DNA of 64,000 bases from Pristiophorus japonicus (lineage: Eukaryota). Below, in pieces: positions 40,561 to 41,729 of this stretch (positions are counted from its first letter, which is position 1; each line of letters begins with the position of its first letter). The position numbers and the translations under genes are program-made. Location: contig NC_091984.1 in the NCBI RefSeq assembly GCF_044704955.1, forward strand, positions 136,524,001-136,588,000. The letters are read 5' to 3'. The notes beneath the pieces are model-generated. The model worked only from the letters and a program-made list of their open reading frames with translations. It was not told the DNA's origin and searched no databases.

Positions 40561-40994
40561 ATACGTATACACTTTCTTGCAGGTGTTGCTAGATAAAGAA
40601 TTTTTTTTGGACATTTCTTCAAGGTCAATTTTTCCACTCTCCTTCCCTCAAATCATCATGGTAGTCGGTCTTTATTAGGCCTTTGGCACTTGTAAGATTG
40701 TCACCATTGTGGGAAGGGATAGAATCTGAAGAAAAGTCAGCAACATCTTTAATTCTATGATATCATGCACGAGCAAATAATGACATCTTTGGAATGCAAA
40801 TACAGATGGAAAGCAACACTAGCTTTTCAACTCTGATGAGCTAAAGCCAATTAAGTCATTTCCATTCAGTATTAAAATAATTTTCTCTTTACAGTAGCTG
40901 CTGTCACCTTTTCTCTCCTATGGGCAAAGCATTCTTGGCTCATTTATTTAGCAAATTGCCATGACATTTGTTTGGAACTGAAAAATAAAGATCT

Positions 40995-41046
40995 ATAAGA
41001 AATAGGAGCAGGAGTAGGCCATTTGGCGCCTCAGCCTGCTCCGCCA
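40995..41046 (-). mobile_element. CR1 3' tip (~52 nt)
   Basis: ataagaaataggagcaggagtaggccatttggcgcctcagcctgctccgcca. Confidence 0.85.
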
Positions 41047-41057
41047 AAGTTATAACC

Positions 41058-41101
41058 TGCATCGGTCGAGAATCGAACTTGGGTCTCCTGCGTGGCAGGC
41101 G
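41058..41101 (-). pseudogene. tRNA-Gly(GCC) 3' half (anticodon arm to discriminator)
   Basis: Minus strand CGCCTGCCACGCAGGAGACCCAAGTTCGATTCTCGACCGATGCA matches the vertebrate tRNA-Gly-GCC 3' part (recalled sequence) at 37/44 positions. The anticodon GCC and T-loop GTTCGATTC are retained. There is no D arm and no CCA. Confidence 0.85.
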
Positions 41102-41729
41102 TGTGCCAAGCATCTATGCCAAGACCGTCTGCAGGAAACTACCAAAATGGAAAATACCTTGAGAAAGCAGCCTCATAACTATGCACTGTCGTATAGTTGA
41201 AAGTGAAATTCAGTCGATGGCGTTTTCGCAGGGCGAGTATTGCTGACCTTTAAATTGTAAGCAGGAAATCCCATCAGTCGTGAGTACCGAATGCTTTGAC
41301 TGAGGCATAATGGATGCTGATAGCATAATTGATATTGCAAGAAATGTATTAAAAGCTGTTGCTTCACTACTGTTCATTTTGAATATCCCTGTGCATAGCT
41401 GATTTTTGATTTGCATCATGAAGATGCAGATCTCCAGCTGCCACTGGATACTGCAGTACTAAAATGCTCTAATGCACGTTGGTAGAAAATATTGCAATAT
41501 CTGTATACTATGACAAAGTGGTGAAGGCTGTTGGTTCCACTTCTTTCTCCTTTCCATGGTGCCAAGGCCTCCTGGAAGCCAGTTCAGAGTGGCATTCACC
41601 AAGGCCCAAGATACCTGGAGTGAGATTGTGCCCAGTGTTATATTTACTGTGAGAACTCCTGACCGAATAGTTGGTCTTACCCTAACTGTTCTATTTTCAG
41701 TACTAAGGGTAAACGTTTAGAGAGAGGTT

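What the first reader, a model, noticed from the sequence alone, without database searches (positions are those of the whole stretch)
40995..41101. tRNA-Gly(GCC)/CR1-tail chimera: candidate minimal SINE or pre-tRNA retro-chimera
Read on the minus strand there are 44 nt of tRNA-Gly 3' half ending at the discriminator with no CCA. An 11-nt spacer GGTTATAACTT(T) follows, resembling a Pol III trailer ending in U residues, and then the ~52-nt CR1 3' stem-loop and tail in the same orientation. tRNA head plus LINE tail is the established SINE layout, and U-tract-ended RNA joined to LINE 3' sequence parallels U6/L1 chimeras. It could be a 5'-truncated copy of an undescribed very short SINE, or a snapshot of SINE birth from an unprocessed pre-tRNA.
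Basis: partly seen in the sequence, partly recalled or inferred. Interest (0 to 1): 0.7.

Follow-up and report, generated by a model that had tools for sequence, protein, structure and literature searches.

The report
Pre-tRNA fused to a CR1 tip
This is a single-copy fusion of the back half of an unprocessed glycine tRNA to the last 52 bases of a very common shark-type retrotransposon (CR1), likely made when the element's copying enzyme jumped onto a newly made tRNA; it is not a SINE family but one of a recurring class of such accidents in this genome.

Summary
Observation confirmed base for base: 44 nt tRNA-Gly(GCC) 3' part, trailer ending in TTT, 52-nt CR1 stem-loop and tail. The junction is unique in the 5.9-Gb genome (1 match at up to 3 mismatches), so no SINE family. 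The trailer is a real tRNA-Gly trailer: it follows decayed tRNA-Gly loci of an old lineage here and a locus in a related species; an intact parent gene was not found. A 9/10-bp direct repeat brackets both parts (p about 0.015), which points to one insertion. The element belongs to a class: 7 tRNA-headed CR1 tips in two searches, each with a different head and junction, 5 joined at the Pol III T-tract, one keeping its intron. Best reading: CR1 reverse transcriptase likely jumped onto the oligo-U end of a pre-tRNA. Known kind (U6/L1, U6/L2 chimeras; proposed origin of PittSINE); a CR1/pre-tRNA set was not found in my searches. The scan noted the same habit for Tx1 elements in this genome. Oddity: the flank supplies an A-box-like motif at tRNA spacing, yet no daughter copies exist. 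Empty site unresolved.

The parts
41111..41121 (-). A-box-like motif in the flank (overlaps the 5' repeat copy), at the same distance from the B box as in tRNA-Gly
   Evidence: index 8 in both the window and the array gene; such a motif occurs at 1 in about 1,970 positions of the window; consensus recalled; the 27 nt are only 9/27 like the tRNA 5' part; unique in the genome
41108..41117 (-). 5' copy of the probable target-site duplication (10 nt)
41102..41107 (-). 6 extra bases at the 5' junction; the first four repeat the bases just upstream of the duplication (likely slippage)
   Evidence: sequence; origin inferred
41058..41101 (-). 3' 44 nt of tRNA-Gly(GCC): anticodon arm, T arm with B box (41078-41070), discriminator, no CCA
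   Evidence: 38/44 to an intact array gene; two of the six differences are shared with the old-lineage loci, the other four are G to A
41046..41057 (-). pre-tRNA 3' trailer ending in three T (T4 in the old-lineage loci); last T shared with CR1
40995..41046 (-). CR1 3' tip: hairpin plus start of the 8-nt tail repeat; 3' UTR only
40988..40996 (-). 3' copy of the probable target-site duplication (9 nt), overlapping the last two bases of the tail
40981..40985 (-). T5 run in the flank, first possible Pol III terminator downstream of the head
   Evidence: T runs: 3, 3, 3, then 5

Best explanation
It is a single-copy chimeric retrocopy, likely written in one insertion event by a CR1 reverse transcriptase that copied 52 nt of its own 3' end and then likely jumped onto the oligo-U end of an unprocessed pre-tRNA-Gly. 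Shown: anatomy, uniqueness of the junction, gene origin of the trailer, a bracketing direct repeat, and a class of sister chimeras that end at the parent's T-tract and lack gene flanks. Inferred: target-primed start on the tail repeat, the jump at the shared T, a stop after 56 nt of tRNA RNA, and repair of the 5' end with 6 extra bases. The parent was likely a functional tRNA-Gly(GCC) gene with this trailer that has since been lost or is missing from the assembly. The copy has most likely been inert since.
For: Junction 1 match at up to 3 mismatches against 156,973 exact CR1 tip anchors. Trailer sits behind tRNA-Gly in 8 decayed loci aligned, which share long flanks, and in a related species. 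The window has none of those flanks: the profile hit is limited to tRNA part plus trailer. Direct repeat at both ends, p 0.015-0.018 with position fixed. (no T-tract demanded): 7 of 25 matches are tRNA-headed CR1 tips, all different, 5 of 7 joined at a T-tract. tRNA-Asp census: 8 of 30 trailer-bearing copies lack both gene flanks; 3 of these 8 carry a CR1 tip against 0 of 22 gene-type copies. Flankless copies start within about 6 nt upstream of the mature 5' end or inside the tRNA, and L097 and L118 keep the Tyr intron. L110 and L117 have the same layout as the window with 7-bp repeats abutting both ends. RtcB ligation needs a cyclic-phosphate end (PMC6789731, passages); nascent pre-tRNA ends in 3'-OH (own knowledge).
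Against: The repeat has an indel and is 6 nt off the head; with free position p is 0.059. 3 of the 10 chimeras examined show no clear repeat (L097, L102, L106). No intact parent gene found; old-lineage copies read GCA at the anticodon while the window reads GCC. The orthologous site in the related species could not be read. Sequence alone cannot separate a jump from RNA ligation. The A-box-like motif at exact tRNA spacing is an unexplained coincidence under this reading. 2 of 7 sisters do not join at a T-tract (L092, L097).
Confidence: 0.72

Rival explanations
1. Two successive insertions: a pre-tRNA retrocopy first, then a 52-nt CR1 tip landing in its terminal T-tract.
For: The end of the trailer loosely resembles the bases after the tail (sequence), which could be a second, decayed duplication; very short CR1 tips do insert on their own (L014, inside a SINE); flankless tRNA copies without a CR1 tip exist (5 of 8).
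Against: That second repeat needs two indels against one for the bracketing repeat; L110 and L117 have clean repeats around head plus tail; 5 of 7 joins fall at the T-tract, all with head and tail on the same strand.
Confidence: 0.12
2. RNA ligation before retrotransposition (RtcB-type): the pre-tRNA 3' end was ligated to a cleaved CR1 RNA fragment and the chimeric RNA was copied.
For: Shown for U6/L1, whose joins also end in a T run (PMC6789731, passages); the product would look the same.
Against: Needs a 2',3'-cyclic phosphate, which U6 has and nascent pre-tRNA is not known to have (own knowledge); a base is shared at the join here.
Confidence: 0.1
3. 5'-truncated copy of an undescribed very short SINE family (tRNA-Gly head, trailer, CR1 tip).
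For: Layout equals that of TguSINE1/PittSINE (PMC5729268, passages).
Against: 1 match for the junction; 1 of 17 B-box-plus-tip matches is this head; no other hit of the DNA searches spans the join (40 of 754 candidates scored).
Confidence: 0.03
4. Chance adjacency, or a CR1 tip inserted into a DNA-level copy of a tRNA gene.
For: CR1 tails are dense (11 in this window at up to 2 mismatches).
Against: No gene flank on either side; 0 of 30 unselected anchors start as short as this tip; 0 of 22 gene-type Asp copies have a tip within 330 nt.
Confidence: 0.03

Closest known systems
U6/L2 chimeras of platypus and U6/L1, U6/L2, U6/RTE chimeras of lizard (PMC4476161, section 10 read)
   Same: 5'-truncated small-RNA head, short tip of a stringent LINE, short target duplication (1-9 bp in 72.5% of 40 platypus cases), each formed independently.
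   Different: Head is a pre-tRNA with trailer, not U6; carrier is CR1, for which that paper had one unresolved U6 case in turkey.
U6/L1 chimeric pseudogenes of mammals (PMC6789731, passages)
   Same: Pol III RNA joined at its U-tract to a 5'-truncated LINE.
   Different: There RtcB ligation through a cyclic phosphate; here a jump is more likely; L1 versus CR1.
TguSINE1 and PittSINE of passerines (PMC5729268, passages)
   Same: tRNA head plus CR1 hairpin and 8-nt tail; the paper proposes a tRNA-CR1 chimera by template switching as the founding step.
   Different: Those are amplified families with full heads; this is one copy without its own A box and with the gene trailer kept.
Pre-tRNA and tailless retropseudogenes of mammals (Schmitz et al. 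2004, seen only as cited in PMC4476161 and PMC3747384)
   Same: Nuclear pre-tRNA used as template by a LINE enzyme.
   Different: Those lack a LINE tip and depend on L1.

Membership tests
SINE family (SINE2) | many dispersed copies sharing head-tail junction | tested here: not met
   1 match at up to 3 mismatches
SINE family (SINE2) | tRNA-derived head with its own A and B boxes | tested here: not met
   tRNA match starts at position 28; upstream 27 nt 9/27 identical; B box present; an A-box-like motif comes from the flank
SINE family (SINE2) | LINE-derived 3' tail | tested here: met
SINE family (SINE2) | Pol III transcription through the tail | not tested
Chimeric retrocopy (small RNA/LINE) | cellular RNA copy directly 5' of a 5'-truncated LINE, same strand | tested here: met
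Chimeric retrocopy (small RNA/LINE) | head bounded by transcript ends, without gene flanks | tested here: met
   ends in the T-tract; no flank homology
Chimeric retrocopy (small RNA/LINE) | one target-site duplication around both parts | tested here: inconclusive
   9/10-bp repeat with one indel, p 0.015-0.06
Chimeric retrocopy (small RNA/LINE) | clean empty site in an ortholog | tested here: inconclusive
   related species bridges the site with 392 unaligned letters against 372
Chimeric retrocopy (small RNA/LINE) | independent single events with differing junctions | tested here: met
CR1 clade (tail donor) | RT-bearing ORF2 of CR1 type upstream of the same tail | tested here: met
   487-aa frame ending 37 nt before the anchor in L146, RVT_1; named homologues are from birds, turtles, coelacanth, rays and sharks; birds lack L2 (PMC13343379, passage). 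No hit is itself named CR1 and no tree was built, so the clade call is indirect.
CR1 clade (tail donor) | 3' hairpin plus 8-nt terminal repeat | tested here: met
   feature as described in PMC5729268

The most novel reading that the evidence does not exclude
The insertion built a working Pol III unit by luck: the target DNA supplies an A box at exactly the tRNA-Gly spacing, the terminator was cut to three T so polymerase would read through the CR1 hairpin, and a T5 run 10 nt past the tail ends the transcript. It would be a transcribed proto-SINE master caught before amplification, while most sisters keep a T4-T6 terminator between head and tail, a built-in filter that would explain why such chimeras rarely found SINE families.
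Probability: 0.07. Interest if true: 0.62.

Novelty: new variant of a known kind. Interest (0 to 1): 0.33.

Why it matters
As one locus it is an ordinary retroposition accident. As a class it gives real examples of the tRNA-CR1 chimera that has been proposed as the first step of SINE birth, and shows that the RNA taken is the nascent, trailer-bearing transcript. It also suggests a testable filter: joining at the U-tract usually carries the terminator along and often loses the A box, so few chimeras could become SINE masters. A CR1-rich shark-type genome offers enough events to count this.

Tried and rejected
SINE family: rejected. Full-length or hybrid tRNA head: the 26 nt upstream match only this locus at up to 3 mismatches, Rfam finds no tRNA, identity to the tRNA-Gly 5' part is 9/27; left as a low-odds reading. 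CR1 inserted in a DNA copy of the old tRNA unit: no flank hit. Intact parent gene: none among the 150 matches (100 listed; the 50 unlisted have 2 mismatches). ARAGORN at relaxed thresholds is mostly noise and was used only for Asp, Gln, Leu, Thr/Ile and Gly heads that also align; the Lys and Pro labels of L102 and L150 are recalled. L150 came from a pattern that demanded a T-tract and was left out of the 5-of-7 count. The protein atlas gave no answer. Paper searches searches returned nothing. U6/CR1 chimeras were not searched. Supplements of the papers were not opened; they may list tRNA/LINE chimeras.

Full report
Observation. On the minus strand 41101-41058 is the 3' 44 nt of tRNA-Gly(GCC), 41057-41046 reads GGTTATAACTTT, and 41046-40995 is a 52-nt LINE tip; one T is shared. 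The tRNA part is 38/44 identical to an intact gene from this genome's 1.48-kb tandem arrays. The tip is 98% identical over 52 nt to its best other copy and folds into a hairpin plus tail (z -3.2). The genome (5.9 Gb) holds 156,973 exact copies of a 13-nt anchor of this tip. A long copy carries a 487-aa RT frame ending 37 nt before the anchor; its named homologues come from birds, turtles, coelacanth, rays and sharks. Birds lack L2 (PMC13343379, passage), so the donor is CR1 by indirect evidence. That the host is a shark or ray is my inference from this.

Not a SINE family. A 26-nt pattern across the join matches once at up to 3 mismatches. DNA searches with the whole element and with the head gave no other hit that spans the join (only 40 of 754 candidates were scored). 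Of 17 places with a B box 12-42 nt before the anchor, only this one has a Gly head.

The spacer is a gene trailer. The same or a near-identical trailer follows tRNA-Gly-like sequence at other places. Eight of these that I aligned share hundreds to thousands of bases of flank, many pairs at about 70-80% identity, and continue after a T-tract with a common downstream sequence: an old, decayed tRNA-Gly lineage, one unit per 10 kb in five of the six stretches read and a second partial hit in some. A related species (organism B, 2 studies) has a locus matching 40 of 49 bases through the trailer, with a tRNA-Gly 5' half on one side and the same kind of flank on the other. Today's intact array genes have another trailer. 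The window copy is array-like in the anticodon arm and old-lineage-like at the 3' end (two shared substitutions); the old-lineage copies read GCA at the anticodon. So the parent was likely a still-working gene with the old trailer; it is not in the assembly. The window shares nothing with the unit beyond tRNA part and trailer, so it is not a DNA-level copy.

One insertion. 41117-41108 and 40996-40988 form a direct repeat with one indel; the 3' copy begins in the tail's last two bases. Chance of as good a match with the position fixed is 0.015-0.018, 0.059 with position free. Six extra bases lie between repeat and head. A weaker alternative repeat around the tip alone needs two indels. The ortholog in organism B could not be read: its contig bridges the site with 392 letters against 372, and neither element nor nearby flank was laid.

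A class. Two patterns that did not ask for a T-tract gave 25 matches: 7 tRNA-headed CR1 tips (window Gly, L087 Asp, L092 Gln, L097 Tyr, L099 Leu, L100 Tyr, L102 Lys-like), 4 heads of a tRNA-derived SINE, 14 CR1-internal or other. Five of the 7 join at a T-tract; L092 joins inside the T arm and L097 within the trailer. A census of tRNA-Asp with one trailer type found 30 copies (all read): 22 keep gene flank and none has a CR1 tip within 330 nt; 8 lack both flanks, 3 of them carry a CR1 tip with different joins, a fourth runs into what looks like CR1 ORF2, two join another element. Flankless copies begin within about 6 nt upstream of the mature 5' end or inside the tRNA and lose the parent in or just after the T-tract. 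L097 and L118 keep the tRNA-Tyr intron of gene L119. L110 and L117 repeat the window's layout with 7-bp repeats touching both ends; 5 of 10 chimeras tested have repeats at p 0.06 or less, 3 show none. These are lower bounds, since exact anchors were required.

Mechanism. Shown: the above. Inferred: CR1 protein primes at a nick on its tail repeat, copies the hairpin, jumps at one shared T to the U-ended pre-tRNA, stops after 56 nt, and the 5' end is repaired with extra bases. RNA ligation gives the same product but needs a cyclic phosphate (PMC6789731, passages), which nascent pre-tRNA is not known to carry (own knowledge). Confidence 0.72; two steps 0.12; ligation 0.10.

An oddity. The flank matches a recalled A-box consensus at 41121-41111, at exactly the index it has in tRNA-Gly (1 in about 1,970 positions; about 1.5% over a workable spacing range; noticed after the fact). 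No run of four T lies between there and 40985. The locus could therefore be transcribed through the CR1 hairpin. But this upstream stretch is unique, so no daughter exists, and I have no RNA data.

Comparison. It works like, and on tested features belongs with, small-RNA/LINE chimeric retrocopies; the platypus U6/L2 set is closest in anatomy (PMC4476161, section 10 read, passages elsewhere). That paper had one unresolved U6/CR1 case. A tRNA-CR1 chimera by template switching is proposed as the origin of PittSINE (PMC5729268, passages). PMC4494074, PMC7245038, PMC3747384 and PMC13343379 were seen as passages only. Searches searches listed no paper describing pre-tRNA/CR1 chimeras in sharks; the library lacks most subscription papers and I opened no supplements. 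The shark SINE HE1 and LINE HER1 are recalled names that I did not compare. Earlier notes of this scan report the same capture habit for Tx1 elements in this genome (unreviewed); none matched this sequence.

Verdict. Real, single-copy, most likely inert; a new variant (pre-tRNA head, CR1 carrier) of a known kind. Interest 0.33.

Noticed in passing
L092 (G000:C16:13239677): Full tRNA-Gln head cut inside the T arm and joined to a CR1 tip, with A and B boxes and no terminator between: a better proto-SINE layout than the window's; seen once.
   Followed up: partly
L052 versus L061: A flankless copy 97% identical over 87 nt to a strongly decayed tRNA-Gly pseudogene, bounded by -3 and the T-tract: decayed tRNA loci here seem still to be transcribed and retroposed.
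   Followed up: partly
L034 and L044/L052: Two different tRNA-Gly pieces sit antisense at the same site of CR1 ORF2, each ending in the same short tail; earlier notes ascribe this to a site-specific Tx1 element.
   Followed up: partly
L050/L051, L109, L118, L156, L054: Pre-tRNA copies (Gly, Asp, Tyr with intron) joined to another element after a shared upstream motif; L054 also has a U6-like piece (recalled) in front of the tRNA.
   Followed up: partly
L058: A piece of one tRNA, an array-type tRNA-Gly with 44 nt of trailer, then a CR1 3' end, all on one strand.
   Followed up: partly
L010, L012, L013 (about 700-1560): An 850-1,500 nt sequence from downstream of a zinc-finger gene ends in the same 52-nt CR1 tip and occurs at three places with different 3' flanks: possibly a non-autonomous family mobilised by the tip.
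   Followed up: no
old-lineage loci L053, L055, L059-L064: Copies with an anticodon arm read GCA on a Gly body although many are only 70-80% alike in flanks; one subgroup is 94-96% alike over 3 kb on several contigs.
   Followed up: partly
window 41167-41184: Organism B appears to carry this short stretch inverted (loose end).
   Followed up: no
G000:C2056 and C1838: Tandem arrays of intact tRNA-Gly(GCC) with a 1.48-kb unit that includes a CR1 fragment; well over 60 units listed.
   Followed up: no
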